From: a phage
DNA: 58,765 nucleotides
Reading direction: 5' to 3' (one strand)
Sequence record: PX530564.1
Shown here: positions 11,136 to 44,016 of the stretch, piece by piece
Layout of the letters: every line of letters starts with the position of its first letter
Numbering within the stretch: the stretch's first letter is position 1
Translations under genes and position numbers: made by a program
Notes under the pieces: generated by a model
The model's input: only the letters and a program-made list of their open reading frames with translations
What the model was told of the DNA's origin: nothing
Database searches by the model: none

Positions 11136-11138
11136 GTT

Positions 11139-27961: not shown

Positions 27962-28009
27962 ATGTTGTCTTTAGATTTTAACAACGAGTTAGTCAAGGCT
28001 ACCTAAAGT
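27962..28009 (+). pseudogene. 17.5: 5' fragment of gene 17.5 (holin), 13 codons, truncated at junction with terminal-repeat sequence
   Basis: ATG 27962, MLSLDFNNELVKA matches the start of the intact holin at 55254, then runs into repeat sequence and stops at TAA 28007-28009. Confidence 0.6.
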
Positions 28010-28167
28010 TCCCCCATAGGGGTACCTAAAGCCCAGCCAATCACCTAAAGTCAACCTTCGGTTGACCTTGAGGGTTCCCTAGGGTTGGGATGACCCTTTG
28101 GTTTACCTTTGAGTGTCTCCTTGTCCCTATCTGTTCAGTCTCCTAAAGTCACCTCCTAAAGTCCATC
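28001..28167 (+). repeat. terminal-repeat-homologous sequence, entered about 15 bp inside the repeat
   Basis: CCTAAAGTTCCCCCATAGGGGTACCTAAAGCCCAGCC.. matches the T7-type terminal repeat; the same repeat type begins TCTCACAGTGTACGG at 58687. Confidence 0.65.
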
Positions 28168-28300
28168 ATCAAGCCAACGCCTAAAGAATACCCTTAAAGA
28201 CCCATCAAGTCAATCCCTATCTTAAAGATATTCTAAAGACCATACCTAAAGACCATACCTAAAGATGCCTTGTTGTTACCTATAAAGAGATTATCTTTAA
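28168..28300 (+). repeat. left-end array of short CCTAAAG / CTTAAAG direct repeats
   Basis: More than 8 copies of the heptamer at irregular spacing, as in T7 left-end short repeats. Confidence 0.5.
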
Positions 28301-28310
28301 CCATTGTCTT

Positions 28311-28333
28311 TAATACAACTCACTATAAGGAGA
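28311..28333 (+). promoter_or_regulatory. T7 RNAP promoter phiOL-like
   Basis: TAATACAACTCACTATAAGGAGA near the genome left end. Confidence 0.7.
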
Positions 28334-28383
28334 CTACTTAAAGGCCTTAAAGAGATTAATCAAAATAATTTAAAAAAGAGTAT

Positions 28384-28412
28384 TGACTTAAGGAGTCCTA
28401 GGGGTTACTATT
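28384..28412 (+). promoter_or_regulatory. sigma70-type early promoter A1-like
   Basis: AAAAAGAGTATTGACTTAAGG.. with -35 TTGACT and -10-like TACTAT at 17-bp spacing. Confidence 0.6.
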
Positions 28413-28509
28413 CATCTCGTCAACGGGACAACGGCCTAAAAGCCACTCCCTGAGATACCGGGGTCAACCGGATAAGTAGACAGCCTGTAAGTCGCACGAA
28501 AAACAGGCA

Positions 28510-28538
28510 TTGACAACACGCAGTAACATGCAGTAAGA
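28510..28538 (+). promoter_or_regulatory. sigma70-type early promoter A2-like
   Basis: TTGACAACACGCAGTAACATGCAGTAAGATAC. Confidence 0.6.
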
Positions 28539-28616
28539 TACACAGCGTCAACACGGTAGCACGGTGTCTTCTAGGTGACTTAAGCGCACCACGGCACATA
28601 AGGTGAAACAAAACGG

Positions 28617-28645
28617 TTGACAACATGCAGTAAACACGGTACGAT
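28617..28645 (+). promoter_or_regulatory. sigma70-type early promoter A3-like
   Basis: TTGACAACATGCAGTAAACACGGTACGATGTACC. Confidence 0.6.
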
Positions 28646-28763
28646 GTACCACAAGCAGTAAGGGTGTAGGGATAGGAACCGAGAAACCTGCCCGCGACCC
28701 GCCACGGATAAGGCACTAGCTATGAGTCGAATTCGGTCACTCATCGCATAAAAGAATAACAGG

Positions 28764-28792
28764 TTGACAGCCTCCTTTAAAAGCTGTAAGAT
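28764..28792 (+). promoter_or_regulatory. additional sigma70-like promoter inside a 137-bp block shared with 40531..40667
   Basis: TTGACAGCCTCCTTTAAAAGCTGTAAGATGTACC (-35 TTGACA, -10 TAAGAT). Confidence 0.45.
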
Positions 28793-29070
28793 GTACCACA
28801 GAAAGACACCGAGTGTCGTAGGTGTAAAAACGCGACATAGTGGATAGATGCCGAAAGCACAAGCGACCACGATAATAAAGAGCTTGTCGGAAATGTAACG
28901 CAAGTGACGGCTAACACTGAAACAGCCTCGGCTCGACGAAACTGTAGCTTAAAGTTCTTTAACAATTTGGTAAATAGCTCTTGGGTGCACGAATAGCGGA
29001 TAACTCAAGGGTATCGCAAGGTGCCCTTTATGATATCCACTAACATTCACATACAATGAGGTAACACAAG

Positions 29071-29421
29071 ATGGCTATGTCTAACATGACTTATAACAAC
29101 GTTTTCGACCACGCTTACGAAATGCTGAAAGAAAACATCCGTTATGATGACATCCGTGACACTGATGACCTGCACGATGCAGTACACATGGCAGCCGATA
29201 GCGCCGTTCCGCACTATTACAGCGACATTTTCAGCGTAATGGCAAGCGAGGGCATTGACCTTGAGTTCGAAGACTCTGGTCTGATGCCGGACACCAAGGA
29301 CGTAATCCGTATCCTGCAAGCACGTATCTATGAGCAACTCACAATCGACCTTTGGGAAGACGCTGAGGACTTACTGAACGAGTATCTTGAGGAAGTCGAA
29401 GCAGAAGAGGATGAAGAGTAA
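29071..29421 (+). CDS. ocr: gene 0.3 Ocr, DNA-mimic anti-restriction protein (116 aa)
   Basis: ORF track; [36 protein letters not shown].. with acidic C-terminus. Confidence 0.93.
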
Positions 29422-29576
29422 TGGCCAACAACACCACGCAATATGGTCTGACCGCTCAAACTGTACTGTTTTATAGTGACATGGTGCGCTGTGGATTTGA
29501 TTGGTCGCTCGCAATGGAACACCTTAAGGAACTGTATGAAAACAACAAGGCAATAGCCTTGGAGTCTGCTGAGTGA
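29421..29576 (+). CDS. 0.4: gene 0.4 protein (51 aa)
   Basis: ATG 29421 overlapping ocr stop, TGA 29574-29576. Confidence 0.65.
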   Translation: MANNTTQYGLTAQTVLFYSDMVRCGFDWSLAMEHLKELYENNKAIALESAE

Positions 29577-29625
29577 TAAACTCAAGGTCGCTCCTAGCGA
29601 GTGGCCTTTCATGATTATCACTTTA
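29577..29625 (+). promoter_or_regulatory. RNase III processing hairpin (R0.5-like)
   Basis: AACTCAAGGTCGCTCCTAGCGAGTGGCCTTTCATGATTATCAC. Confidence 0.4.
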
Positions 29626-29643
29626 CTTACGGGAGTAATGTAT

Positions 29644-29769
29644 ATGCTTACTATCGGTCTACTCACCGCTCTGGGTCTAGCTGTAGGCGCATCCTTTGGG
29701 AAGTCTTTGGGCGTAGCTGTAGGCTCTTACTTGGTCGCTTGTATCATCACGGGAGCACTGCGCAAATGA
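29644..29769 (+). CDS. 0.5: gene 0.5 small membrane protein (41 aa)
   Basis: ATG 29644, MLTIGLLTALGLAVGASFGKSLGVAVGSYLVACIITGALRK. Confidence 0.6.
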   Translation: MLTIGLLTALGLAVGASFGKSLGVAVGSYLVACIITGALRK

Positions 29770-29906
29770 TGAAACATTACGTTATGCCTATCCACACCAA
29801 GAACGGTGCTACAGTTTGCACACCTGATGGCTTCGCAATGAAACAACGCATTGAGCGCCTTAAGCGCGAACTGCGCATCAACCGCAAGCGTCTTCAACTA
29901 GGCTGA
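29766..29906 (+). CDS. 0.6: gene 0.6-like protein (46 aa)
   Basis: ATG 29766 overlapping 0.5 stop; MMKHYVMPIHTKNGATVCTPDGFAMKQRIERLKRELRINRKRLQLG. Confidence 0.55.
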   Translation: MMKHYVMPIHTKNGATVCTPDGFAMKQRIERLKRELRINRKRLQLG

Positions 29907-29931
29907 AATTCTTGTAACTAAAGGCAACTGT

Positions 29932-30386
29932 ATGCTTAATTGCTCCAAAACGTGTATAGCATGTGGTGAGATGAAACCACTGAATATGTACTCGAAAAAT
30001 GCAGCATCGCGAGATGGTCACATCGGTACGTGTAAGAAATGCAAGGCAAAGCAACAAAGGGAACGAAGAGCCAAGGCAAAGGCTTCTGGTGCGCCAACTG
30101 AGAAGGCAATCAAGGATGCCAAGCGTAGACGAAACAATCACCTGAAAATTAGTTACGGTATCGACGAATCAGTGTACAAAAAGATGTACGAAGAACAACA
30201 CGGCGTCTGCGCCATATGTAAACAACCTGAAAGCATTGAGGGTAGGCGACTATGTGTTGACCATTCGCACATGACAGGAGACGTAAGGGTCTTCTGTGCT
30301 CAAACTGCAACAGAGGAATAGGCCTTCTTAAAGACTCACCTGAACTATTACGCAACGCTTTCTATTATTTAACTGGTAAACTCTAA
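29932..30386 (+). pseudogene. Endonuclease VII-type (His-Cys box) homing-endonuclease-like gene with apparent 1-nt frameshift
   Basis: ORF 29932..30321 carries CAICKQP..LCVDHSHMTGDVR; the motif continues in the +1 frame (GLLCSNCNRGIGLLKDSPELLRNAFYYL) to TAA 30384-30386; break is in the G-run at 30287-30289. Confidence 0.7.
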
Positions 30387-30399
30387 AGGACACACTGTA

Positions 30400-31479
30400 A
30401 TGAACATTACCGACATCATGAACGCTATCGACGCAATCAAAGCACTGCCAATCTGTGAACTTGATAAGCGTCAAAGTATGCTCATTGATTTGCTGGTCGA
30501 GATGGTCAACAACGAAACGTGTGACGGTGAAATCACCAAGCTGGACAAGCCGCTTGAATATCAGGACTGGTGGACTACCTTAAGGTGCCTGACTACTGAC
30601 GCTGGCTTCACGATGCTCGGTAATGGTCACTTCTCCGCTGCATATAGTCACCCACTGCTGCCTAACAGAGTGATTAAGGTGGGCTTTAAGAAAGAGGATT
30701 CAGGCGCTGCGTATATCGCATTCTGCCGCATGTATCAGGGTCGCGCTGGTATCCCTAACGTCTACGATGTTCAACGCCATGCAGGCTGCTATACGGTGGT
30801 TCTTGATGCCCTGAATGAATGTGAGCGAGACGATAACTATGAGCACGACAAATACGCTGAGATTGCAAGCGACATCATTGACTGCAACTCTGATATGCAC
30901 GATTGGCGTGGCGGATGGGTTGGGGAGTTCGTCGAAACTTGCAAACTAATCCGCAAGTTCTTTGAGGGCATCGCTTCGTTCGACATGCACAGCGGGAACA
31001 TCATGTTCGACGATAATGACGTACCGTACATTACCGACCCTGTGTCATTCTCACAGAAGAAAGATGGTGGCGTGTTCAGCATGGACCCTGAGGAACTCAT
31101 CAAGGAAGTCGAGGAAGTCGCACGACAGAAAGAAATTGACCGCGCCAAGGAACGTAAAGAACGCCATGAGGGACGATTACAAGCGCGTAGAGTCAAACGC
31201 ATTAATCGCAAGGCACGTAAGGCACACCGCGCTAAGCGTGAAAGGATGCTTGCTGCGTGGCGCATGGCTGAGCGTCACGAACGGCGTAACCATGAGGTAG
31301 CTGTAGATGTGCTAGGAAGAACCAATAACGCTATGCTCTGGGCGCACATGTTCGCTGGGGACTTTAAGGCGCTTGAGGAACGAATCGCAGCGCACTGGTT
31401 CCAAGCTGACCGCATGGCTATAGCTAATGGTCTTCCACTAAACATTGATAAGAAACTTGACGCAATGCTAATGGGATGA
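30400..31479 (+). CDS. 0.7: gene 0.7 protein kinase / host transcription shut-off protein (359 aa)
   Basis: ORF track; [25 protein letters not shown].. full length as T7 gp0.7. Confidence 0.9.
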
Positions 31480-31549
31480 TAGTCTTATCTTACAGGTCAT
31501 CTGCGGGTGGCCTGAAATAGATACGATTACTGACCGAAAGAGGTACAAA

Positions 31550-34201
31550 ATGAGCACGATTAACATCGCTAAGAACGATTTCTCTGACATCGAACTGGCT
31601 GCTATCCCGTTCAACACTCTGGCTGACCACTATGGTGAGCGTCTAGCTCGCGAACAGTTGGCCCTTGAGCATGAGTCTTACGAGATGGGCGAGGCACGTT
31701 TCCGCAAGATGTTTGAGCGTCAACTCAAGGCCGGTGAGGTTGCAGACAATGCGGCTGCTAAGCCACTGATTACTACTCTACTGCCCAAGATGGTTACACG
31801 CATCAACGACTGGTTTGAGGAAGTGAAAGCTAAGCGTGGCAAACGTCCAACCGCTTTCCAGTTCCTGCAAGGAATCAAGCCGGAAGCCGTAGCGTATATC
31901 ACCATTAAGACTACTCTTGCTTGCCTAACGAGCGTAGACAATACAACCGTTCAGGCTGTAGCAAGCGCCATCGGACGGGCTATCGAGGAAGAGGCTCGCT
32001 TCGGTCGAATCCGTGACCTAGAAGCTAAGCACTTCAAGAAAAACGTTGAGGAACAACTAAACAAGCGCGTAGGGCACGTCTATAAGAAAGCATTCATGCA
32101 AGTAGTAGAGGCCGATATGCTCTCTAAGGGTCTACTCGGTGGCGAGGCGTGGTCTACATGGCACAAGGAAGATTCCATTCACGTAGGTGTGCGCTGCATT
32201 GAGATGCTCATTGAGTCCACCGGAATGGTTAGCTTGCACCGCCAAAATGCTGGCGTAGTGGGCCAAGACTCTGAGACTATCGAGCTGGCACACGAATACG
32301 CTGAGGCTATCGCAACACGGGCTGGGGCACTGGCGGGTATCTCTCCGATGTATCAGCCTTGCATAGTACCGCCTAAACCTTGGACCGGTGTAACTGGTGG
32401 TGGATACTGGGCCAACGGTCGCCGTCCACTGGTACTGGTGCGTACCCACAGCAAGAAGGCACTGATGCGCTACGAAGATGTTTACATGCCTGAGGTATAC
32501 AAGGCGATCAACATTGCGCAAAACACCGCTTGGAAAATCAACAAGAAAGTCCTAGCGGTCGCCAACGTAATCACCAAGTGGAAGCACTGCCCGGTCGAGG
32601 ACATCCCAGCGATTGAACGTGAAGAACTCCCGATGAAACCGGAAGACATCGACACGAATCCTGAGGCTCTCACTGCATGGAAACGTGCCGCTGCCGCTGT
32701 GTACCGTAAAGACAAGGCTCGCAAGTCTCGCCGCATAAGCCTTGAGTTCATGCTTGAGCAAGCCAATAAGTTCGCTAACCATAAGGCCATCTGGTTCCCT
32801 TACAACATGGACTGGCGCGGTCGTGTTTACGCTGTGTCAATGTTCAACCCGCAAGGTAACGACATGACCAAGGGACTGCTGACACTGGCTAAGGGTAAAC
32901 CAATCGGTAAAGAAGGTTACTACTGGCTGAAAATCCACGGTGCAAACTGTGCGGGTGTCGATAAGGTTCCGTTCCCTGAGCGCATCAAGTTCATTGAGGA
33001 CAACCACGAGAACATCATGGCTTGCGCTAAGTCTCCTCTGGAGAACACTTGGTGGGCTGAGCAAGATTCTCCGTTCTGCTTCCTTGCGTTCTGCTTTGAG
33101 TACGCTGGGGTACAACACCACGGCCTTAGCTACAACTGCTCTCTTCCGCTGGCGTTCGATGGGTCTTGCTCTGGTATTCAGCACTTCTCCGCGATGCTCC
33201 TTGATGAGATAGGTGGTCGTGCGGTTAACCTGCTGCCTAGTGAAACCGTTCAGGACATCTACGGGATTGTCGCTAAGAAAGTCAACGTGATTCTGCAAGA
33301 AGACGTAATCAACGGGACCGACAACGAAGTAGTTACCGTGACTGATGAGAACACTGGCGAAATCTCTGAGAAAGTTAAGCTGGGCACCAAGGCATTGGCT
33401 GGTCAGTGGTTGGCTTACGGTGTTACTCGCAGCGTGACTAAGCGTTCAGTCATGACGCTGGCTTACGGGTCCAAAGAGTTCGGCTTCCGTCAACAAGTGC
33501 TGGAAGATACCATTCAGCCAGCTATTGATTCCGGTAAAGGTCTGATGTTCACTCAACCGAATCAGGCCGCTGGATACATGGCGAAACTGATTTGGGAAGC
33601 TGTGAGCGTCACGGTGGTAGCTGCGGTTGAAGCAATGAACTGGCTTAAGTCTGCCGCTAAGCTGCTGGCTGCTGAGGTCAAAGATAAGAAGACTGGAGAG
33701 ATTCTTCGCAAGCGTTGCGCTGTGCATTGGGTAACTCCTGATGGGTTCCCAGTGTGGCAGGAATACAAGAAGCCAATTCAGACTCGCTTGAACCTGATGT
33801 TCCTCGGTCAGTTCCGCTTACAGCCGACCATTAACACCAACAAAGACAGCGAGATTGATGCACACAAACAGGAGTCCGGTATTGCTCCTAACTTTGTACA
33901 CAGCCAAGATGGTAGCCACCTGCGTAAGACTGTAGTGTGGGCGCATGAGAAGTACGGAATCGAATCATTTGCGTTGATTCACGACTCCTTCGGGACCATT
34001 CCGGCTGACGCTGCCAACCTGTTCAAAGCTGTTCGCGAAACTATGGTTGACACCTATGAGTCTTGCGATGTACTGGCTGACTTCTATGAGCAGTTCGCTG
34101 ACCAGTTACATGAGTCTCAATTGGATAAAATGCCAGCACTTCCGGCTAAAGGTAACTTGAATCTCCAAGACATCCTTAAGTCAGACTTCGCGTTCGCGTA
34201 A
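31550..34201 (+). CDS. 1: gene 1 single-subunit DNA-dependent RNA polymerase (883 aa)
   Basis: ORF track; near-identical to T7 RNAP (MSTINIAKNDFSDIELAAIPFNTLADHYGERLAREQ.. ..DFAFA). Confidence 0.98.
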   Translation: MSTINIAKNDFSDIELAAIPFNTLADHYGERLAREQLALEHESYEMGEARFRKMFERQLKAGEVADNAAAKPLITTLLPKMVTRINDWFEEVKAKRGKRPTAFQFLQGIKPEAVAYITIKTTLACLTSVDNTTVQAVASAIGRAIEEEARFGRIRDLEAKHFKKNVEEQLNKRVGHVYKKAFMQVVEADMLSKGLLGGEAWSTWHKEDSIHVGVRCIEMLIESTGMVSLHRQNAGVVGQDSETIELAHEYAEAIATRAGALAGISPMYQPCIVPPKPWTGVTGGGYWANGRRPLVLVRTHSKKALMRYEDVYMPEVYKAINIAQNTAWKINKKVLAVANVITKWKHCPVEDIPAIEREELPMKPEDIDTNPEALTAWKRAAAAVYRKDKARKSRRISLEFMLEQANKFANHKAIWFPYNMDWRGRVYAVSMFNPQGNDMTKGLLTLAKGKPIGKEGYYWLKIHGANCAGVDKVPFPERIKFIEDNHENIMACAKSPLENTWWAEQDSPFCFLAFCFEYAGVQHHGLSYNCSLPLAFDGSCSGIQHFSAMLLDEIGGRAVNLLPSETVQDIYGIVAKKVNVILQEDVINGTDNEVVTVTDENTGEISEKVKLGTKALAGQWLAYGVTRSVTKRSVMTLAYGSKEFGFRQQVLEDTIQPAIDSGKGLMFTQPNQAAGYMAKLIWEAVSVTVVAAVEAMNWLKSAAKLLAAEVKDKKTGEILRKRCAVHWVTPDGFPVWQEYKKPIQTRLNLMFLGQFRLQPTINTNKDSEIDAHKQESGIAPNFVHSQDGSHLRKTVVWAHEKYGIESFALIHDSFGTIPADAANLFKAVRETMVDTYESCDVLADFYEQFADQLHESQLDKMPALPAKGNLNLQDILKSDFAFA

Positions 34202-34209
34202 CGTCAAAT

Positions 34210-34232
34210 TAATACGACTCACTATAGAGGGG
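34210..34232 (+). promoter_or_regulatory. T7 RNAP promoter phi1.1A-like
   Basis: TAATACGACTCACTATAGAGGGA immediately after gene 1. Confidence 0.85.
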
Positions 34233-34233
34233 A

Positions 34234-34275
34234 CAAACTCAAGGTCATTCGCAAGAGTGGCCTTTATGATTGACC
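34234..34275 (+). promoter_or_regulatory. RNase III processing hairpin (R1.1-like)
   Basis: CAAACTCAAGGTCATTCGCAAGAGTGGCCTTTATGATTGACC. Confidence 0.45.
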
Positions 34276-34298
34276 TTCTTCCGGTTAATACGACTCAC
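34276..34298 (+). promoter_or_regulatory. T7 RNAP promoter phi1.1B-like
   Basis: TAATACGACTCACTATAGGAGAA. Confidence 0.85.
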
Positions 34299-34386
34299 TA
34301 TAGGAGAACCTTAAGGTTTAACTTTAAGACCCTTAAGTGTTAATTAAAGATTTAAATTAAAGAATTACTAAGAGAGGACTTTAAGT
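34299..34386 (+). other. AT-rich tract downstream of phi1.1A/B; candidate primary origin of replication
   Basis: About 75% A+T (..TTTAACTTTAAGACCCTTAAGTGTTAATTAAAGATTTAAATTAAAGAATTAC..) at the position of the T7 primary origin. Confidence 0.4.
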
Positions 34387-34515
34387 ATGCGTAACTTCGA
34401 AAAGATGACCAAACGTTCTACCCGTAATGCTCATGACTTCGAGGCAACTAAAGGTCGCAAGTTGAATAAGACTAAGCGTGACCGTTCCCATAAGCGTAGC
34501 TGGGAGGGTCAGTAA
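34387..34515 (+). CDS. 1.1: gene 1.1 basic protein (42 aa)
   Basis: ATG 34387, MRNFEKMTKRSTRNAHDFEATKGRKLNKTKRDRSHKRSWEGQ. Confidence 0.7.
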   Translation: MRNFEKMTKRSTRNAHDFEATKGRKLNKTKRDRSHKRSWEGQ

Positions 34516-34516
34516 G

Positions 34517-34774
34517 ATGGGACGTTTATACAGTGGGAACTTGAATGACTTCAAGGATGCTTGCAACAGGCTCTACCAGTTAGACTTTGCTGTTATTTGT
34601 GATGAATGGCATGATGCTTACAAACGCCTTGCGTGTATACGTCTACGCGTAGAGGACAGGGCTGGAAATCTGATTGATACCAATACGTTCTGTCACCACG
34701 ATGAAGACGTCTTGTACAATACGTGTACTGACTGGCTGAACCGTATGTACGACCAGTTGAAGGACTGGAAGTAA
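34517..34774 (+). CDS. 1.2: gene 1.2 protein (85 aa; dGTPase inhibitor in T7)
   Basis: ATG 34517 inside ORF 34478..34774; MGRLYSGNLNDFKDACNRLYQLDFAVICDEWHDAYKR.. Confidence 0.85.
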   Translation: MGRLYSGNLNDFKDACNRLYQLDFAVICDEWHDAYKRLACIRLRVEDRAGNLIDTNTFCHHDEDVLYNTCTDWLNRMYDQLKDWK

Positions 34775-34794
34775 TACGACTCAGTATAGGGACA
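34772..34794 (+). promoter_or_regulatory. T7 RNAP promoter phi1.3-like
   Basis: TAATACGACTCAGTATAGGGACA overlapping 1.2 stop. Confidence 0.75.
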
Positions 34795-34830
34795 ATGCTT
34801 AAGGTCGCTCATTGAGTGGCCTTAGTCATT
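34795..34830 (+). promoter_or_regulatory. RNase III processing hairpin (R1.3-like)
   Basis: AATGCTTAAGGTCGCTCATTGAGTGGCCTTAGTCATT. Confidence 0.4.
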
Positions 34831-34852
34831 TAACCAATAGGAGATAAACATT

Positions 34853-35878
34853 ATGATGAACATTAAGACCAACCCATTCAAAGCCGTGTCTTTCATAGAG
34901 TCTGCCATTAAGAAAGCTCTGGATAACGCTGGGTATCTTATTGCTGACATTAAGTACGATGGTGTGCGTGGTAACATCTGCGTAGACAATACCGCTAACT
35001 GCTGCTGGCTCTCTCGTGTATCCAAACCGATTCCGGCACTGTCTTACCTTAATGGGTTCGACGCACGTTGGCAGCGTCTACTAAAGGATGACCGTTGCTT
35101 CTACCCTGATGGCTTCATGCTGGATTGCGAACTTATGGTCAAGGGAGTGGACTTCAACACTGGCTCCGGCCTTCTGCGGACCAAGTGGCTCAACAAGAAG
35201 AACATGCAGTTCGATATTGGAGGTCCGTATGAATCGTGGGACGTGAGCCTGAAGGGACTTCCTTTCGGTATTGACCCGAACTTACTAACAGTTAAACTCT
35301 ACGCTATCCTTCCGTACCACATTGTGGAATCTGGGGAAGACTGTGATGTCATGACGTTGCTCATGCAGGAACACGTTAAGAACATGCTGCCTCTGCTACA
35401 GGAATACTTTCCTGAAATCGAATGGCAAGCGGCTGAGTCTTACGAGGTTTACGACATGGTAGAACTACAGCAACTGTACGAGAAGAAGCGTGAAGAAGGG
35501 CATGAGGGTCTCATTGTGAAAGACCCGATGTGCATCTACAAGCGCGGTAAGAAGTCCGGCTGGTGGAAACTTAAGCCTCTTGAGGAAGCTGACGGTATCA
35601 TTCAAGGTGTAAACTGGGGAACCGAAGGGCTTGCTAACGAAGGTAAGGTAATTGGATTCAAGGTGCTTCTTGAGACTGGTCGTCTTGTGGATGCCAATAA
35701 CATCTCTCGCGCCTTAATGGATGAATTTACAGCTAACGTTAAAGAACATGGCGAGGACTATTATAATGGCTGGGCTTGCCAGATTGGATTTATGGAGGAA
35801 ACACCAGATGGCTCATTGCGTCACCCGTCCTTCACCTGCTTCCGAGGAACTGAGGACAATCCGAAAGAGAAAGTATAA
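34853..35878 (+). CDS. 1.3: gene 1.3 ATP-dependent DNA ligase (341 aa)
   Basis: ORF track; adenylation-site motif ..IADIKYDGVRG.. and C-terminus ..ETPDGSLRHPSFTCFRGTEDNPKEKV. Confidence 0.92.
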   Translation: MMNIKTNPFKAVSFIESAIKKALDNAGYLIADIKYDGVRGNICVDNTANCCWLSRVSKPIPALSYLNGFDARWQRLLKDDRCFYPDGFMLDCELMVKGVDFNTGSGLLRTKWLNKKNMQFDIGGPYESWDVSLKGLPFGIDPNLLTVKLYAILPYHIVESGEDCDVMTLLMQEHVKNMLPLLQEYFPEIEWQAAESYEVYDMVELQQLYEKKREEGHEGLIVKDPMCIYKRGKKSGWWKLKPLEEADGIIQGVNWGTEGLANEGKVIGFKVLLETGRLVDANNISRALMDEFTANVKEHGEDYYNGWACQIGFMEETPDGSLRHPSFTCFRGTEDNPKEKV

Positions 35879-36278
35879 GTATAACCCTGCGGCTCCTTCG
35901 GGAGTCATTTCTGCCTCTGGTAAACCCATAGGGTACAAGCGGAAAGATGGGTATTGGGTTCTTTCTTATGGAGGAAAGCAGTTACTTGCACACAGGGTGG
36001 TCTGGATGCTTAACTTCGGTGCAATACCCGATGGAATGGTGATAGACCACATTAACAGAAACCCTAGCGACAACCGCATAGAGAATCTTCGAGTAGTAAC
36101 TCAATCAGCTAACCTAAGGAATGTAGGCGTCCGGTCTCACTGTAGGAGTGGAGAGAAGTTTATCTCCCTTGATGTGAGAACCGGACGTTTTTCCGTTCGT
36201 ATCAGGAGAAAATCCTATGGAACATATGGTACTCTCGAAGAGGCTATAGCTGTGCGCGATGCTAATACGACTCACTAA
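35808..36278 (+). CDS. HNH homing-endonuclease-like protein (about 156 aa) between ligase and gene 1.5
   Basis: ATG 35808 with GGAGGA RBS, inside ORF 35721..36278; motif ..GMVIDHINRNPSDNRIENLRVVTQSAN..; overlaps ligase 3' end by 71 nt; stop is the TAA of the phi1.5 promoter. Confidence 0.7.
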   Translation: MAHCVTRPSPASEELRTIRKRKYKYNPAAPSGVISASGKPIGYKRKDGYWVLSYGGKQLLAHRVVWMLNFGAIPDGMVIDHINRNPSDNRIENLRVVTQSANLRNVGVRSHCRSGEKFISLDVRTGRFSVRIRRKSYGTYGTLEEAIAVRDANTTH

Positions 36279-36285
36279 AGGAGGT
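36263..36285 (+). promoter_or_regulatory. T7 RNAP promoter phi1.5-like (block B copy)
   Basis: TAATACGACTCACTAAAGGAGGT. Confidence 0.85.
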
Positions 36286-36292
36286 ACACATC

Positions 36293-36382
36293 ATGATGTA
36301 CTTAATGCCATTACTCATTGTCATCATAGGATGCCTTGCGCTCCACTGTAGCGATGACGATATGCCAGATGGTCATGCTTAA
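36293..36382 (+). CDS. 1.5: gene 1.5 small membrane protein (29 aa), block B copy
   Basis: ATG 36293, MMYLMPLLIVIIGCLALHCSDDDMPDGHA, TAA 36380-36382. Confidence 0.65.
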   Translation: MMYLMPLLIVIIGCLALHCSDDDMPDGHA

Positions 36383-36402
36383 TACGACTCACTAAAGGAG
36401 AC
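36380..36402 (+). promoter_or_regulatory. T7 RNAP promoter phi1.6-like (block B copy)
   Basis: TAATACGACTCACTAAAGGAGAC. Confidence 0.85.
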
Positions 36403-36407
36403 ACTAT

Positions 36408-36668
36408 ATGTTTCGACTTCATTACAACAAAAGCATTAAGAATTTCACGGTTCGCCGTGCTGACCGTTCAATCGTATGTGCGAGCGAGCGCCGAGCTAAG
36501 TTACCTCTTATTGGTAACACAGTTCCTTTGGCACCGAGCGTCCACATCATTATCACCCGTGGTGACTTTGAGAAAGCAGTAGATAAGAAACGTCCGGTTC
36601 TTAGCGTGGCAGTGACCCGCTTCCCGTTCGTCCGTCTGTTACTCAAACGTATCAAGGAGGTGTTCTAA
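36408..36668 (+). CDS. 1.6: gene 1.6 protein (86 aa), block B copy
   Basis: ORF track; 5 aa differences from the copy at 231..491. Confidence 0.85.
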
Positions 36669-36995
36669 TGACTATTAACCATAAAGAATATTGTCGCTCC
36701 GTACTTAGCTTTGGGTCGTGCGATTGTGGTGCCACTACGAACCACGTGTCCAACAAACAACAAGACGTAGACGGTGTTCGTACTCCGAGCCATTACATGC
36801 TGTTTGACGACATTGAGGCTATTGAAGTGATTGCCCGTTCGATGACCAGTGAGCAGTTCAAAGGGTACTGCTTCGGGAACGTACTTAAATATCGCCTACG
36901 TGCTGGTAAGAAATCCGAACTGGCTTACTTAGAGAAGGACATGGCGAAAGCTGAGTTCTACGGTGAACTGTACGAGAAACATAAGGATAAGTGCT

Positions 36996-37009
<14 letters not shown>
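36668..37009 (+). CDS. 1.7: gene 1.7 protein, short allele (113 aa)
   Basis: ORF track; conserved C-terminal half, N-terminal Cys-rich region largely absent relative to the 213-aa block A allele. Confidence 0.8.
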
Positions 37010-37329
<320 letters not shown>

Positions 37330-37332
<3 letters not shown>

Positions 37333-37352
37333 TACGACTCACTATTGGGGGA
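37330..37352 (+). promoter_or_regulatory. T7 RNAP promoter phi2.5-like (block B copy)
   Basis: TAATACGACTCACTATTGGGGGA. Confidence 0.75.
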
Positions 37353-37398
37353 AGACTCCCTCTGAGAAACTAAACGAAACCTAAAGGAGATTAACATT

Positions 37399-38097
37399 AT
37401 GGCTAAGAAGATTTTCACCTCTGCGCTGGGTACTGCTGAACCTTACGCTTACATCTCTAAGCCGGACTACGGCAACGAAGAGCGTGGCTTTGGGAACCCT
37501 CGCGGTGTCTACAAAGTTGACCTGACTATTCCCAACAAAGACCCGCGCTGCCAACGTATGGTCGATGAAATCGTGAAGTGCCACGAAGAGGCTTATGCTG
37601 CTGCCGTTGAGGAATACGAAGCGAACCCGCCTTCTGTAGCTCGTGGTAAGAAACCACTGAAACCGTATGAAGGCGACATGCCGTTCTTCGATAACGGTGA
37701 CGGTACGACTACCTTTAAGTTCAAATGCTACGCGTCTTTCCAAGACAAGAAGACCAAAGAGACCAAGCACATTAATCTGGTTGTGGTTGACTCCAAAGGT
37801 AAGAAGATGGAAGACGTTCCGATTATCGGTGGTGGCTCTAAACTGAAAGTAAAATACTCGCTGGTTCCGTACAAGTGGAACACCGCTGTAGGCGCGAGCG
37901 TTAAGCTACAACTGGAATCCGTAATGCTGGTCGAACTGGCTACCTTTGGTGGCGGTGAAGATGATTGGGCTGACGAAGTTGAAGAGAACGGCTATGTTGC
38001 CTCTGGTTCTGCCAAAGCGAGCAAACCACGCGACGAAGAAAGCTGGGACGAAGACGACGAAGAGTCCGAGGAAGTAGACGAAGACGGAGACTTCTAA
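37399..38097 (+). CDS. 2.5: gene 2.5 ssDNA-binding protein (232 aa), block B copy
   Basis: ORF track. Confidence 0.9.
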   Translation: MAKKIFTSALGTAEPYAYISKPDYGNEERGFGNPRGVYKVDLTIPNKDPRCQRMVDEIVKCHEEAYAAAVEEYEANPPSVARGKKPLKPYEGDMPFFDNGDGTTTFKFKCYASFQDKKTKETKHINLVVVDSKGKKMEDVPIIGGGSKLKVKYSLVPYKWNTAVGASVKLQLESVMLVELATFGGGEDDWADEVEENGYVASGSAKASKPRDEESWDEDDEESEEVDEDGDF

Positions 38098-38553
38098 GTG
38101 GCTGGCGCATACGCTGCGCGTGGTATCAGAAAGGTCGGGACATTCCGTTCCGGCCTAGAAGATAAGGTCTCTAAGCAGCTAGAGGGTAAGGGTATTAAGT
38201 TCGATTATGAACTGTGGAAAATCCCTTACGTTGTCCCTGCGAGCAACCATGTGTATACTCCAGACTTCCTGCTGCCTAACGGAATCTTTATTGAAACCAA
38301 AGGTTTATGGGAGAGTGACGACCGAAAGAAACACTTATTGATTCGCGAACAGTTTCCTGAACTGGACATCCGTCTGGTGTTCTCAAGCTCACGCACCAAG
38401 CTATACAAAGGGTCTCCGACCAGTTACGGCGAATGGTGTGAGAAGCACGGTATTCTGTTTGCTGACAAATTAATTCCTGTAGAATGGCTCAAAGAACCCA
38501 AAAAGGAGGTGCCATTTGACAAGCTGAAACAATCGAAGGGAGGAAAGAAATAA
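38098..38553 (+). CDS. 3: gene 3 endonuclease I, block B copy
   Basis: ORF track, GTG start. Confidence 0.9.
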   Translation: MAGAYAARGIRKVGTFRSGLEDKVSKQLEGKGIKFDYELWKIPYVVPASNHVYTPDFLLPNGIFIETKGLWESDDRKKHLLIREQFPELDIRLVFSSSRTKLYKGSPTSYGEWCEKHGILFADKLIPVEWLKEPKKEVPFDKLKQSKGGKK

Positions 38554-39008
38554 TGGCTCGTGTACAGTTTAAACAACGTGAATCCACTGACGCAATCTTT
38601 GTTCACTGCTCGGCTACCAAGCCAAGCCAGAATGTAGGTGTCCGTGAGATTCGTCAGTGGCATAAAGAGCAAGGTTGGCTTGATGTCGGGTATCACTTTA
38701 TCATCAAGCGTGATGGTACTGTAGATGAAGGCCGAGATGAGATGGCTGTAGGTTCTCACGCTAAGGGTTACAACCACAACTCTATTGGTGTCTGCCTTGT
38801 AGGTGGTATCGACGATAAAGGCAAGTTCGACGCTAACTTTACGCCAGCCCAAATGCAATCCCTTCGCTCACTGCTTGTCACACTGCTGGCTAAGTATGAA
38901 GGCGCTGTACTGAAAGCCCATCACGATGTCGCACCCAAGGCTTGCCCTTCGTTCGACCTTAAGCGTTGGTGGGAGAAGAACGAACTGGTCACTTCTGACC
39001 GTGGATAA
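38553..39008 (+). CDS. 3.5: gene 3.5 lysozyme / amidase, block B copy
   Basis: ORF track. Confidence 0.92.
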   Translation: MARVQFKQRESTDAIFVHCSATKPSQNVGVREIRQWHKEQGWLDVGYHFIIKRDGTVDEGRDEMAVGSHAKGYNHNSIGVCLVGGIDDKGKFDANFTPAQMQSLRSLLVTLLAKYEGAVLKAHHDVAPKACPSFDLKRWWEKNELVTSDRG

Positions 39009-39009
39009 T

Positions 39010-39034
39010 TAATTGAACTCACTAAAGGGAGACC
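39010..39034 (+). promoter_or_regulatory. T7 RNAP promoter phi3.8-like (block B copy)
   Basis: TAATTGAACTCACTAAAGGGAGACC. Confidence 0.75.
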
Positions 39035-39064
39035 ACAACGGTTTCCCTTTGTTCGCGTTGTTGA

Positions 39065-40537
<1,473 letters not shown>

Positions 40538-40631
40538 GGATAGGAACCGAGAAACCTGCCCGCGACCCGCCAAGGATAAGGCACTAGCTATGAGTCGAAT
40601 TCGGTCACTCATCGCATAAAAGAATAACAGG

Positions 40632-40660
40632 TTGACAGCCTCCTTTAAAAGCTGTAAGAT
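40632..40660 (+). promoter_or_regulatory. sigma70-like promoter inside the shared 137-bp block (block C copy)
   Basis: TTGACAGCCTCCTTTAAAAGCTGTAAGATGTACC; block 40531..40667 near-identical to 28663..28799. Confidence 0.45.
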
Positions 40661-40847
40661 GTACCACGAAATGACGGAACAGTGAGTCACCACACTGAAA
40701 GGTGATGCGGCCTAACGAAACCTGACCAAAGACGCTCTTTAACAATCTGGTAAACGGCTCTTGAGTGTACACACGTAGCGGATAACTCAAGGGTATCGCA
40801 AGGTGCCCTTTATGATATCCACTAACAACACTATGAGGTAACACACA

Positions 40848-41198
40848 ATGGCTATGTCTAACATGACTTATAACAACGTTTTCGATCACGCTTACGAAAT
40901 GCTGAAAGAAAACATCCGTTATGATGACATCCGTGACACTGATGACCTGCACGATGTAGTACACATGGCAGCCGATAGCGCCGTTCCGCACTATTACAGC
41001 GACATTTTCAGCGTAATGGCAAGCGAGGGCATTGACCTTGAGTTCGAAGACTCTGGTCTGATGCCGGACACCAAGGACGTAATCCGTATCCTGCAAGCGC
41101 GTATCTATGAGCAACTCACGATTGACCTCTGGGAAGACGCTGAGGACTTACTGAACGAGTACCTTGAGGAAGTCGAAGCAGAAGAGGACGAAGAGTAA
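40848..41198 (+). CDS. ocr: gene 0.3 Ocr anti-restriction protein (116 aa), second copy
   Basis: ORF track; one aa difference from the copy at 29071. Confidence 0.93.
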
Positions 41199-41353
41199 TG
41201 ACTAACAACACCACGCAATACGGTCTGACCGCTCAAACTGTACTGTTCTATAGCGACATGGTGCGCTGTGGCTTTAACTGGTCGCTCGCAATGGAACACC
41301 TTAAGGAACTGTACGAAAACAACAAGGCAATAGCCTTGGAGTCTGCCGAGTGA
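41198..41353 (+). CDS. 0.4: gene 0.4 protein (51 aa), second copy
   Basis: ATG 41198, TGA 41351-41353. Confidence 0.65.
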   Translation: MTNNTTQYGLTAQTVLFYSDMVRCGFNWSLAMEHLKELYENNKAIALESAE

Positions 41354-41421
41354 TAGGCTCAAGGTCGCTCGATATGAGTGGCCTTTATGATTATCACTTT
41401 ACTTGAATGGGAGTAATGCAC

Positions 41422-41550
41422 ATGCTTACTATCGGTCTACTCACCGCTCTAGGTCTAGCTGTAGGCGCATCCTTTGGGAAGTCCTTAGGCGTAGCTGTAG
41501 GCGCTTACTTGGTCGCTTGTATCATTACGGGAGCACTGCGCAAATGCTGA
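41422..41550 (+). CDS. 0.5: gene 0.5 small membrane protein, second copy
   Basis: ATG 41422, MLTIGLLTALGLAVGASFGKSLGVAVGAYLVACIITGALRKC. Confidence 0.6.
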   Translation: MLTIGLLTALGLAVGASFGKSLGVAVGAYLVACIITGALRKC

Positions 41551-41706
41551 AACACTACGTTATGCCTATCCACACATCCAACGGGTCTACAGTATGCACA
41601 CCTGATGGGTTCGCAATGAAACAACGAATCGAACGCCTTAAGCGTGAACTGCGCATCAACCGCAAGATTAACAAGATAGGTTCCAGCTATGACAGAACTC
41701 ACTGAT
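41545..41706 (+). CDS. 0.6: gene 0.6A (53 aa); the overlapping frame 41689..41907 may give a 0.6B-type extension
   Basis: ATG 41545, MLKHYVMPIHTSNGSTVCTPDGFAMKQRIERLKRELRINRKINKIGSSYDRTH; overlapping ORF 41689..41907 in ORF track. Confidence 0.6.
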
Positions 41707-41928
41707 GGCTTAAAGAAAGGTTACATGACCAACGGTACACTATACGCTGCAAATAGGCGAATAGTGAGAACTTGGCGAGAGAACAACCTTGAACGCCGTA
41801 AGGCCCAAGAAAGGGCGGCATGGCATCGGCGAAAGGAAAAGGTTAAAGCCAAGAAACTCGCCGCACTTGAAAAGGCACTAGCCAATACACTGAACGCTAT
41901 CTCATAACGAACTAAAGGACACACTGAA

Positions 41929-42987
<1,059 letters not shown>

Positions 42988-43000
42988 TACGTGATGATAT

Positions 43001-43023
43001 TAATTAGACTCACTAAAGGAGGT
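43001..43023 (+). promoter_or_regulatory. T7 RNAP promoter (phi4.3-type) upstream of HNH gene
   Basis: TAATTAGACTCACTAAAGGAGGT. Confidence 0.65.
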
Positions 43024-43029
43024 AGCCAC

Positions 43030-43449
43030 ATGAGCACTGACTTAGAGAGACTTGAAAGATTCTTGAAGATTGAGGGCGATTGCTGGCTGTTCACTGGCGG
43101 CAAGTCACATGCCTACGGAGTGTTCTGGATGGGTGGTAAGAATCACAAGGCACATAGGGCTGCCTTCGAACTTTATAATGGGAGGAAACCTAATGGTGTT
43201 ATATTACACTCTTGTGATAATCCTTTGTGCTGCAATCCCGCTCATCTATCTGAGGGAACTCAGCTTGATAATATGGTGGACATGGTTAGAAAGGGACGCT
43301 CGTTAAAGGGTACGAAGAATCCCGCATGTAAGTTTACCGATGAGGATGTCAAGTTCATTCAGGAGTCTACCATGAAGGTCAAAGATTTAGCCACTCTATT
43401 CGGAGTGACGCGCCAAACAATAACCAGATGGAGGAAACACCATGTTTAA
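43030..43449 (+). CDS. HNH homing-endonuclease-like protein with C-terminal helix-turn-helix (139 aa) between gene 4 and gene 4.3
   Basis: ATG 43030 with AAGGAGG RBS inside ORF 42991..43449; ..HRAAFELYNGRKPNGVILHSCDNPLCCNPAHLSEGTQLDN.. and C-terminal ..LATLFGVTRQTITRWRK. Confidence 0.75.
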   Translation: MSTDLERLERFLKIEGDCWLFTGGKSHAYGVFWMGGKNHKAHRAAFELYNGRKPNGVILHSCDNPLCCNPAHLSEGTQLDNMVDMVRKGRSLKGTKNPACKFTDEDVKFIQESTMKVKDLATLFGVTRQTITRWRKHHV

Positions 43450-43654
43450 ACTGATTAAGAAGTTGGGCAAACTGCTGGTTCGTTTGTATAACGTGGAAGC
43501 CAAGCGACTGAACGACGAGGCCCGTAATGAAGCCACACAGTCCCGCGCTCTGGCTATCCGCTCTAACGAACTGGCTGACAGCGCATCAAATAAAGTTACC
43601 GAGGCAGCTCGCGTAGCCAACCAAGCTCAACAACTTTCCAAATTCTTTGAGTAA
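43442..43654 (+). CDS. 4.3: gene 4.3 protein (70 aa), block D copy
   Basis: ORF track. Confidence 0.8.
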   Translation: MFKLIKKLGKLLVRLYNVEAKRLNDEARNEATQSRALAIRSNELADSASNKVTEAARVANQAQQLSKFFE

Positions 43655-43673
43655 TCAAACAGGAGAAACCATC

Positions 43674-43943: not shown

Positions 43944-43984
43944 GAGTGGTATGCTCAAGGTCGCCCAAGCGGTGGCCTTCATGA

Positions 43985-44008
43985 ATACTATTCGACTCAC
44001 TATAGGAG
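43985..44008 (+). promoter_or_regulatory. T7 RNAP promoter phi4.7-like (block D copy)
   Basis: ACTATTCGACTCACTATAGGAGAT. Confidence 0.7.
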
Positions 44009-44016
44009 ATATGACC

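What the first reader, a model, noticed from the sequence alone, without database searches (positions are those of the whole stretch)
28663..28799. 137-bp promoter-bearing block whose left edge coincides exactly with the gene 4 junction
The block GGTGTAGGGATAGGAACCGAG..TTGACAGCCTCCTTTAAAAGCTGTAAGATGTACCAC lies after the A3-like promoter in block B and recurs at 40531..40667, where its first base is also the first base after the gene 4 breakpoint. It carries a sigma70-like promoter and an imperfect palindrome around GAATTC (ATGAGTCG-AATTC-GGTCACTCAT). It behaves like a discrete recombining unit.
Basis: partly seen in the sequence, partly recalled or inferred. Interest (0 to 1): 0.45.

Follow-up and report, generated by a model that had tools for sequence, protein, structure and literature searches.

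The report
Extra early promoter cassette; join artificial
The repeated 137-base block is the same optional host-polymerase promoter cassette seen in two different T7-like phage genomes that have been pasted together in this window, so its edge at the "gene 4 junction" is an artefact, although the cassette itself is a real present-or-absent module in nature.

Summary
Bases 28663-28799 recur at 40531-40667 (136/137 identical), with a TTGACA-17-TAAGAT promoter and a palindrome around GAATTC. The window, however, is not one molecule. It is exact pieces of separate GenBank phages laid end to end: vB_EcoM_CQ615 1-12530, C5 701-2940, C5 12321-18270 and 64795_ec1 29191-39235. Every cut falls on a multiple of ten in the source numbering and no join has homology. 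The block's left edge is therefore the cut in C5 at base 701; in intact C5 the homology with CQ615 runs on to the genome end.

Comparison of natural genomes still shows a discrete unit. It is a 147-bp cassette (28654-28800) bounded by direct repeats of the promoter start motif GATGTACCACA. It is cleanly absent from T7, 13a, Pila, 64795_ec1 and PE3-1. It is present at 91-100% identity in 46 phage records, and the 15 carriers examined fall in four Studiervirinae genera. It is the most conserved 130-nt stretch genome-wide between genera. Its promoter is already annotated as a fourth host RNAP promoter in phage BA14.

Most likely it is an optional fourth early promoter, gained or lost by recombination between promoter repeats. 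The roughly 100-nt upstream part has three hairpins with one compensatory change each; its function is unknown. Interest is low to moderate.

The parts
28001..40530 (+). Segment identical to Escherichia phage vB_EcoM_CQ615 (PQ010280.1) bases 1-12530: left genome end, early region, and genes up to a truncated gene 4.
   Evidence: 100% identity, base-for-base equality
40530..40531 (.). Artificial join J2: CQ615 base 12530 followed by C5 base 701. It breaks gene 4 in mid-frame.
   Evidence: No shared base on either side. Absent from all phage records, IMG/VR and JGI metagenomes.
40531..42770 (+). Segment identical to Escherichia phage C5 (MH717099.1) bases 701-2940: the cassette minus its first 9 nt, then genes 0.3-0.7 (partial).
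   Evidence: 100% identity
28617..28645 (+). A3-type host (sigma-70) promoter, TTGACA-17-TACGAT. This is the third early promoter.
   Evidence: aligns with T7 A3, annotated at T7 base 750
28643..28653 (+). Left copy of the direct repeat GATGTACCACA: -10 end and start site of the A3-type promoter.
   Evidence: 23-nt repeat at 83%, spacing 147, with an exact 11-nt core
28654..28800 (+). The natural 147-bp cassette (the presence/absence unit), copy in the CQ615 segment.
   Evidence: Clean 147-bp difference from Pila, T7, 13a, 64795_ec1 and PE3-1 with matching flanks
28662..28700 (+). Hairpin H1: GGG-UGUA-GGG-A-UAGG / CCUG-CCC-GCGA-CCC, -14.4 kcal/mol. Its basal pair changes from G-C to U-A in Kayfunavirus.
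28719..28747 (+). One pair is A-U, G-U or G-C in different phages.
28764..28792 (+). Fourth host (sigma-70) promoter, TTGACA-17-TAAGAT, preceded by the A-rich stretch AAAAGAATAA. Predicted start is near 28800. The spacer holds the inverted repeat ACAGC/GCTGT (28767-28787), which is ACAGT/ACTGT in Berlinvirus.
   Evidence: The orthologous site is annotated 'host RNAP promoter' at 834-870 in the BA14 record EU734171. for the inverted repeat.
28790..28800 (+). Right copy of the direct repeat GATGTACCACA.
40531..40668 (+). Second copy of the cassette (C5 bases 701-838), cut at its left end. The first 9 nt (C5 692-700, AGCAGTAAG) and the preceding A1-A3 promoters are missing because of the join. 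Its promoter lies at 40632-40660.
39080..40537 (+). Gene 4 (primase/helicase) reading frame truncated by the join: 485 aa instead of 566, with the stop TAG inside the block.

Best explanation
Two things are superimposed. (1) The window is a composite. Exact pieces of at least four T7-like phage genomes are laid end to end: an unidentified Pila-like phage in 1-28000, then CQ615 1-12530, C5 701-2940, C5 12321-18270 and 64795_ec1 29191-39235. The two copies of the block are therefore the same early-region segment in two related phages. The copy at 40531 starts where it does only because C5 was cut at base 701. (2) In nature the block is the core of a 147-bp optional cassette. It sits between the A3-type host promoter and the RNase III R0.3-type leader, upstream of the first early gene. 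It carries a fourth rightward sigma-70 promoter (TTGACA-17-TAAGAT, start near 28800). I infer that this promoter adds host-RNA-polymerase initiations on the first DNA to enter the cell, raising early transcription and, as in T7, transcription-driven genome entry. The cassette begins and ends with the same promoter -10/start motif (GATGTACCACA). Recombination or replication slippage between the A3-type promoter and the cassette promoter, within a genome or between co-infecting phages, can therefore remove, add or swap it. This explains the patchy distribution across four genera. Shown: the composite nature of the window; the consensus promoter; the clean indel with direct repeats; the cross-genus conservation. 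Inferred: promoter activity in these phages, the recombination mechanism, and any role of the roughly 100-nt hairpin-containing upstream part.
For: Composite window:
- Base-for-base identity to three GenBank records, with cuts at 12530, 700, 2940, 12320, 18270 and 29190 (all multiples of ten) and a first block of exactly 28000 nt.
- Zero microhomology at the joins.
- No record spans join J2.

Cassette:
- The 137-nt block is found in 46 phage records at 91-100% identity, one copy each. In all 15 carriers examined it lies in the same slot, in Teseptimavirus, Berlinvirus, Kayfunavirus and Przondovirus.
- Carriers have TGTACCAC twice, 147 nt apart; non-carriers have it once.
- Pila equals C5 minus 147 bp, 64795_ec1 equals CQ615 minus 147 bp, and PE3-1 equals SH3/ST31 minus 147 bp. 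Downstream leaders match in each pair.
- The repeat is 23 nt at 83%, with an exact 11-nt core, spaced 147 nt apart.
- The block is the single most conserved 130-nt window in CQ615 vs BA14 (95.4% against a median of 70%) and in CQ615 vs SH3 (94.6% against 68%).

Promoter:
- 10 of 12 consensus positions.
- The -10/start region is shared with A3.
- The orthologous site is annotated as a fourth 'host RNAP promoter' in BA14.
- T7-like phages are reported to have 3-6 host promoters (PMC5923468).

Promoter-level recombination:
- PDP351P2 has the cassette's promoter core fused to an A2-type upstream region.
- EcoDS1 and SEA1f carry a different promoter cassette in the same slot.
Against: - No transcription start has been mapped for this promoter in any carrier that I could find. 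In Berlinvirus and most Kayfunavirus the -10 is TAAGCT (3 of 6 consensus positions).
- The direction of change (gain or loss) is unresolved.
- Genus-specific variants of the cassette suggest some vertical history rather than only recent exchange.
- The very high conservation of the roughly 100 nt upstream of the promoter, and its compensatory changes, are not explained by a promoter function alone.
- The source of block 1-28000 was not identified at 100%, so I cannot show how the window was built.
Confidence: 0.85

Rival explanations
1. The window is one real phage genome in which early-region DNA beginning with this block was inserted into gene 4. On this reading the block's left edge is a true recombination breakpoint of a mobile promoter unit.
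For: The block's first base is the first base after the gene 4 break. Gene 4 sequence resumes 2240 nt later at 42771.
Against: - Each side of the join is 100% identical to a different deposited genome.
- All six internal cut coordinates are multiples of ten in arbitrary GenBank numbering, about a 1e-6 chance.
- The joins have no microhomology.
- The two gene 4 parts come from different phages and skip 40 nt.
- 58.8 kb carrying duplicated genes 0.3, 4, 5 and 6 is about 1.5 times the roughly 37-41 kb of the T7-like genome records seen here.
- No database sequence spans the join.
Confidence: 0.02
2. The join is a mis-assembly of a mixed T7-like phage sample by an assembler, not a deliberate concatenation.
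For: The segments are closely related phages that could co-occur. Chimeric contigs are common in viromes.
Against: Assembly-graph chimeras switch inside shared k-mers; here the joins have 0-1 shared bases and lie in non-homologous positions. The cut coordinates are round numbers of the GenBank records, and each piece is 100% identical to an isolate from a different country.
Confidence: 0.03
3. The cassette is primarily a functional structured element, an RNA in the leader of A1-A3 transcripts or a DNA site. It is kept nearly invariant by selection, is ancestral to these genera and has been lost repeatedly. The promoter is secondary.
For: - The roughly 100 nt upstream of the promoter are as conserved as the promoter across four genera.
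- The block is the most conserved window genome-wide.
- Three predicted hairpins each show one compensatory double change, with only 1 broken cell in 531. By my reading of the alignment, nearly all other variable columns fall in unpaired positions.
- Each hairpin alone folds better than shuffles, z about -2.2 to -2.4 for H1 and H2.
- Variants are genus-specific.
Against: - The whole block is not unusually stable (z = -1.0).
- No Rfam family or tRNA-like match was found.
- The sequences fall into only about three clades, so there are about three independent events; 24 of 500 shuffles reach three covarying pairs.
- The structure was predicted from the same sequences.
- No homologues at 70-90% identity exist in 50,697 phage records, which fits young spread better than ancient constraint.
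- Many successful relatives, T7 included, lack the cassette.
Confidence: 0.25
4. The cassette is a miniature mobile element (MITE-like or homing-type) that inserts by its own mechanism, with TGTACCAC as a target-site duplication.
For: Clean presence/absence with a short direct repeat at both ends, and a patchy distribution across genera.
Against: - One copy per genome, always in the same slot.
- No terminal inverted repeats.
- No room for a gene in 147 nt.
- The 'duplication' is part of a 23-nt promoter homology that also exists in genomes without the cassette, and promoter hybrids occur.
- No copies in bacterial genomes.
Confidence: 0.04

Closest known systems
E. coli RNA polymerase early promoters A1, A2 and A3 of phage T7
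   Same: Rightward sigma-70 promoters clustered at the left genome end upstream of gene 0.3. The cassette promoter has a perfect TTGACA, a 17-nt spacer, the TAAGAT -10 also found in the window's A2-type promoter, an A-rich stretch upstream, and a -10/start region (GATGTACCAC) identical to A3.
   Different: It is a fourth promoter, absent from T7 itself, 13a, Pila and 64795_ec1. It comes with about 100 nt of unique, hairpin-containing sequence that has no similarity to the A1-A2 or A2-A3 intervals.
Fourth 'host RNAP promoter' annotated at 834-870 in the phage BA14 record (GenBank EU734171)
   Same: Orthologous sequence in the same slot, about 95% identical over the block. This is the same element.
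   Different: BA14 is a Berlinvirus with TAAGCT as its -10 and a SAM-hydrolase-type gene 0.3 downstream. The CQ615 and C5 records leave the region unannotated.
Alternative promoter cassette of EcoDS1 / SEA1f (third 'host RNAP promoter', EcoDS1 764-800)
   Same: It occupies the same slot between the preceding host promoter and the R0.3-type leader, is of similar length and also carries a host promoter. Flanks are about 95% identical to carriers of the block.
   Different: The cassette sequence itself is not homologous to the block.
Deletions between short direct repeats in T7 DNA (known behaviour of T7; recalled from the T7 deletion-mutant literature, not checked here)
   Same: The empty sites correspond exactly to loss of one repeat copy plus the intervening 147 bp.
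   Different: Here the polymorphism is natural, spans four genera, and could equally be gain by recombination between co-infecting phages. The direction was not resolved.
Chimeric or concatenated sequence records
   Same: Abrupt switches between 100%-identical pieces of different genomes, duplicated and truncated genes, and an impossible genome length.
   Different: The joins lack the shared k-mers expected of assembler chimeras and fall on round source coordinates, which points to mechanical concatenation.

Membership tests
Sigma-70 early promoter of T7-group phages (A-class) | -35 and -10 hexamers close to TTGACA / TATAAT with a 16-18 nt spacer | tested here: met
   TTGACA-17-TAAGAT, 10 of 12 positions, with T-12, A-11 and T-7 present. 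Conserved in all 19 distinct versions except that the -10 varies: TAAGAT, TAAGCT or TAATAT.
Sigma-70 early promoter of T7-group phages (A-class) | Rightward orientation near the left genome end, upstream of the first early gene | tested here: met
   CQ615 764-792, C5 802-830, BA14 834-870 and SH3 about 723-751 from the left end, all upstream of gene 0.3 equivalents.
Sigma-70 early promoter of T7-group phages (A-class) | Initiation by E. coli RNA polymerase demonstrated | not testable with these tools
   Only a curated annotation in BA14. No start-site data were found.
Intragenomic duplication / recombination breakpoint in one phage genome | Both copies lie on one natural DNA molecule | tested here: not met
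   The copies belong to pieces 100% identical to two different GenBank genomes. The join is absent from every collection searched.
Intragenomic duplication / recombination breakpoint in one phage genome | Homology or microhomology at the breakpoint | tested here: not met
   No shared bases at J2 and J3, one at J4. All cuts are multiples of ten in the source coordinates.
Cassette gained or lost by recombination between short direct repeats | Direct repeats at both ends of the unit | tested here: met
   A 23-nt repeat (83%) with the exact core GATGTACCACA at 28643-28653 and 28790-28800, spaced 147 nt apart.
Cassette gained or lost by recombination between short direct repeats | Empty sites keep one repeat copy and the same flanks | tested here: met
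   Pila vs C5, 64795_ec1 vs CQ615, and PE3-1 vs SH3/ST31.
Mobile element (IS / MITE / homing element) | Terminal inverted repeats or an encoded transposase or endonuclease | tested here: not met
   The only inverted repeat is the internal H2 palindrome. At 147 nt there is no room for a gene.
Mobile element (IS / MITE / homing element) | Copies at several loci or in unrelated genomes | tested here: not met
   46 records and 46 places, always the same slot. None in E. coli genomes or in 185,579 species genomes.
Structured non-coding RNA family | Match to a described family | tested here: not met
   No Rfam match in the block at E up to 1, and no tRNA or tmRNA.
Structured non-coding RNA family | Base pairs supported by covariation and by stability beyond shuffles | tested here: inconclusive
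   Three compensatory pairs, 99.8% of cells paired, slid controls at 0, but only about three clades and 24 of 500 shuffles reach three pairs. The whole block has z = -1.0; single hairpins have z about -2.2 to -2.4.

The most novel reading that the evidence does not exclude
The roughly 100 nt upstream of the cassette's promoter (hairpins H1 and H2, 28662-28747) may be a functional structured element of the early leader RNA. It would be made from the A1-A3 promoters in the first minutes of infection and has been exchanged among four genera of T7-like phages. Possible roles are modifying or stabilising host-polymerase early transcription, or acting against a host defence. The cassette would then be more than a spare promoter.
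Probability: 0.2. Interest if true: 0.55.

Novelty: already known. Interest (0 to 1): 0.22.

Why it matters
For the scan, this finding flags that the window is a concatenation of pieces of several deposited phage genomes. Any feature that depends on its joins (28000/28001, 40530/40531, 42770/42771, 48720/48721) should be discounted.

For phage biology the gain is small. The slot between the last host promoter and the R0.3-type leader of T7-like phages holds interchangeable promoter cassettes: empty, this 147-bp type, or an EcoDS1 type. They are bounded by promoter-derived repeats. This cassette is the most conserved stretch shared by otherwise about 70%-identical genera. That gives a simple natural system for asking how the number of early promoters, and the conserved hairpins, affect genome entry and early expression.

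Tried and rejected
- Known RNA families and tRNA-like genes: Rfam at E up to 1 gave only a chance-level hit outside the block; ARAGORN found nothing.
- Whole-block RNA stability: not distinguishable from shuffles, z = -1.0.
- Host origin: no match in 5,426 E. coli genomes. The 21-nt palindrome core is absent from 185,579 species genomes.
- Origin by tandem duplication of the A2-A3 interval: only the promoter parts are similar; the first ~97 nt are unique.
- Mobile-element reading: no terminal inverted repeats, a single locus, a single copy.
- A 9-codon ORF (ATG/GTG AGT CGA ... TAA) inside hairpin H2: by inspection of the alignment, its changes are those that keep the stem (ATG to GTG paired with ATC to ACC) rather than the peptide. 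Not pursued.
- Source of block 1-28000: best match is Serratia phage Pila at 92-95%. No 100% source was found in the phage collection or IMG/VR, so its cut coordinates could not be checked.
- Literature: two full-text searches found no description of this cassette. One paper gives the general statement that T7-like phages have 3-6 host promoters.
- I first thought there were diverged (about 80%) copies in EcoDS1 and SEA1f. The alignment showed that the similarity lies in the flanks and that the cassette there is a different sequence.

Full report
**1. The observation**

The sequence at 28663-28799 recurs at 40531-40667. The repeat finder reports it as 145 nt at 97% (28663-28807 and 40531-40675). 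Direct comparison gives 136/137 identical, with the single mismatch at 28705, and 141/145.

Base 40531 follows the point where the gene 4 frame is broken. The ORF 39080..40537 runs into a TAG inside the block and gives 485 aa, against 566 aa for the intact gene.

The promoter-like site TTGACA (28764), 17 nt, TAAGAT (28792) matches 10 of 12 consensus positions. It is the fourth rightward site after those at 28383, 28510 and 28617. The region has 7 such sites against 1.4 expected from shuffles. The imperfect palindrome is at 28719-28747.

**2. What the window is**

A search of the phage collection showed that 28001-29100 is 100% identical to the left end of Escherichia phage vB_EcoM_CQ615. For the query 40000-41100, no record covers both halves. 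The left half is 100% CQ615 (12000-12530) and the right half is 100% Escherichia phage C5 (701-1270).

Local BLAST and base-for-base comparison, together, give this map:

| Window | Source | Identity |
|---|---|---|
| 1-28000 | unidentified Pila-like phage | 92-95% to the best record |
| 28001-40530 | CQ615 1-12530 | 100% |
| 40531-42770 | C5 701-2940 | 100% |
| 42771-48720 | C5 12321-18270 | 100% |
| 48721-58765 | 64795_ec1 29191-39235 (record end) | 100% |

Written as offsets, the cuts are 12530, 700, 2940, 12320, 18270 and 29190, and the first block is exactly 28000 nt. All are multiples of ten in arbitrary GenBank numbering.

None of the joins has microhomology; one ambiguous base at the last join is the most. 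The three identified sources are isolates from China (two) and Italy.

The 30-mer across 40530/40531 is absent from IMG/VR and from JGI metagenome contigs. The window carries duplicated and truncated genes (0.3, 0.7, 4, 5, 6) and is about 1.5 genome lengths long.

I conclude that the window is a mechanical concatenation and that the gene 4 junction is not biological. An assembler chimera is unlikely, because such chimeras switch inside shared k-mers.

**3. Consequence for the finding**

Copy 1 is CQ615 663-799 and copy 2 is C5 701-837. In the intact genomes the similarity does not start there: CQ615 1-804 aligns with C5 16-841 at 93.5%. The left edge of the repeat in the window is the cut in C5.

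**4. What the block is in nature**

*Distribution.* A sensitive search with the 137 nt found it in 46 phage records, one place each, at 91-100% identity. A 47th record holds only the promoter part. The 15 carriers I examined belong to four genera of Studiervirinae:
- Teseptimavirus: CQ615, C5, EG1.
- Berlinvirus: BA14, P483, 285P, D226.
- Kayfunavirus: SH3, yong1, ST31, Baskent, BDX03P1, CHX131, IMEP24.
- Przondovirus: Klebsiella phage K35PH164C3.

In all of these the block lies in the same slot, after the last host promoter and before the R0.3-type leader and the first early gene. That gene differs among them: ocr, SAM hydrolase or others. IMG/VR adds three metagenomic T7-like genomes. The core is absent from E. 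coli genomes and from 185,579 species genomes.

*Boundaries.* T7, 13a, Pila and 64795_ec1 lack the block. Printing the sequence around every TGTACC shows a clean pattern:
- Carriers have TGTACCAC(A/G) twice, exactly 147 nt apart (CQ615 645 and 792; C5 683 and 830). Non-carriers have it once, as the -10/start region of A3.
- Pila continues after that motif with the same leader as C5 does after its second copy (AAATGACGGAACAGTGAGTCACC).
- 64795_ec1 continues with the same leader as CQ615 (AAAGACACCGAGTGTCGTAGG).

The same 147-bp unit is therefore present or absent on two different downstream backgrounds. In Kayfunavirus, PE3-1 is SH3/ST31 minus the same unit. EcoDS1 and SEA1f carry a different, non-homologous cassette in that slot, with its own annotated host promoter.

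The repeat finder gives a 23-nt direct repeat (83%) with an exact 11-nt core GATGTACCACA, at a spacing of 147, and no terminal inverted repeats. PDP351P2 has the cassette's promoter core fused to an A2-type upstream region, so exchanges also occur within promoters.

The natural unit is 28654-28800. The copy at 40531 lacks the unit's first 9 nt.

*Conservation.* Against BA14 and SH3, whose alignable DNA is about 70% identical to CQ615, the block is the single most conserved 130-nt window of the genome: 95.4% and 94.6%, top 0.05% of windows. Flanks are genus-specific. No copies of intermediate identity (70-90%) were found. This fits fairly recent spread by recombination, although each genus has its own few diagnostic substitutions.

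**5. How it most likely works**

The right third of the cassette is a host promoter. It has a perfect -35, a 17-nt spacer, the -10 TAAGAT (as in the window's A2-type promoter), an A-rich stretch just upstream, and a -10/start region identical to A3.

In BA14, whose record carries detailed promoter and terminator annotation, the orthologous site is annotated as the fourth 'host RNAP promoter' (834-870). T7-like phages are reported to have 3-6 such promoters (PMC5923468).

From established T7 biology (my knowledge, not tested here), host polymerase starting at the A promoters transcribes the early genes and pulls the genome into the cell. Only about the first 850 bp enter without transcription. 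The cassette promoter lies at about 720-870 from the left end in the genomes examined, so it is placed to take part in this. The step from sequence to activity is inferred.

Gain, loss and swapping by recombination or slippage between the promoter-derived repeats is inferred from the exact empty sites and the hybrids.

**6. The upstream roughly 100 nt**

These nucleotides are unique sequence and are as conserved as the promoter. RNAalifold on 19 distinct versions predicts three hairpins:
- H1, 28662-28700.
- A stem in the promoter spacer, 28767-28787.

Each has one compensatory double change: G-C/U-A; A-U/G-U/G-C; C-G/U-A. Only 1 of 531 cells is unpaired, and slid controls give none. H1 and H2 alone fold better than shuffles, with z about -2.2 to -2.4.

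Against this, the whole block has z = -1.0 and there is no Rfam or tRNA match. There are only about three clades, 24 of 500 shuffles reach three covarying pairs, and the structure was derived from the same sequences.

I treat a structured leader element as possible (about 0.2-0.25), with function unknown.

**7. Comparison with what is known, and verdict**

The element works like, and by the tested criteria is, an A-class early host promoter of the T7 group. The identical element is already annotated in BA14.

It is not an intragenomic duplication: both defining features were tested and not met. It is not a mobile element: there are no inverted repeats, one locus and one copy.

What I did not find described is the exact 147-bp cassette structure with promoter-derived repeats, the alternative alleles of the slot, and the outlier conservation across genera. 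My literature searches were limited.

The finding as written rests on an artefact. The underlying element is real, ordinary in kind and largely known. Interest is 0.22.

Noticed in passing
window 1-58765; joins at 28000/28001, 40530/40531, 42770/42771, 48720/48721: The whole window is a concatenation of exact pieces of separate phage genomes: unknown Pila-like, CQ615 1-12530, C5 701-2940, C5 12321-18270 and 64795_ec1 29191-39235. All cuts fall on multiples of ten and none has junction homology. Any finding that relies on these joins or on 'duplicated' genes is affected.
   Followed up: yes
window 40530/40531 and 42770/42771: The two gene 4 parts nearly abut in gene coordinates. CQ615 12530 corresponds to C5 12280, and C5 resumes at 12321, so 40 nt of gene 4 are skipped and 2240 nt of C5 early region lie between. 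ORF 41929..42987 is a chimeric reading frame across the second join.
   Followed up: partly
window 1-28000: This block (gene 1.6 region to gene 17.5 region) has no 100% source in the phage collection or IMG/VR. The best match is Serratia phage Pila at 92-95%. It may be an undeposited Teseptimavirus.
   Followed up: partly
window 28801-28955 versus 40669-40735: A second polymorphism lies just downstream of the cassette. CQ615 and 64795_ec1 share a leader of about 155 nt (AAAGACACCGAGTGTCG...), where C5, T7 and Pila have a different one of about 65 nt (AAATGACGGAACAGTGAGTCACC...). Homology resumes at the R0.3-type region.
   Followed up: partly
L037 (EcoDS1 EU734172) locus ~380-640; L039 (SEA1f): EcoDS1 and SEA1f carry a different, non-homologous cassette of about 150 nt, with its own annotated host RNAP promoter, in the same slot. 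Flanks are about 95% identical to SH3. PE3-1 (L038) has the slot empty.
   Followed up: partly
L009 (Teseptimavirus PDP351P2) locus ~795-850: A hybrid promoter: the cassette's promoter core (TTGACAGCCTCCTTTAAAAGCTGTAAGATGTACCAC) joined to an A2-type upstream sequence, without the hairpin-containing 100 nt.
   Followed up: partly
window 28729-28734 (and 40597-40602): An EcoRI site, GAATTC, forms the loop of hairpin H2. It is kept in 18 of 19 distinct versions (CHX131 has GAATTT). This is curious in DNA that enters the cell first.
   Followed up: no
window 40733-40745 and 28954-28965: CGCTCTTTAACAA / GTTCTTTAACAA in the R0.3-type leader matches, from memory, the boxA sequence of E. coli rrn operons (TGCTCTTTAACAA). 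It is conserved in 13 of the 15 phages aligned, from four genera, and in CQ615 with one change.
   Followed up: no
window 36753-36998 (CQ615 8753-8998): The second most conserved island between CQ615 and the Berlinvirus BA14: 90% over 246 nt, against a genome median of about 70%. It lies in the gene 1.7/1.8 region and may be another exchanged module.
   Followed up: no
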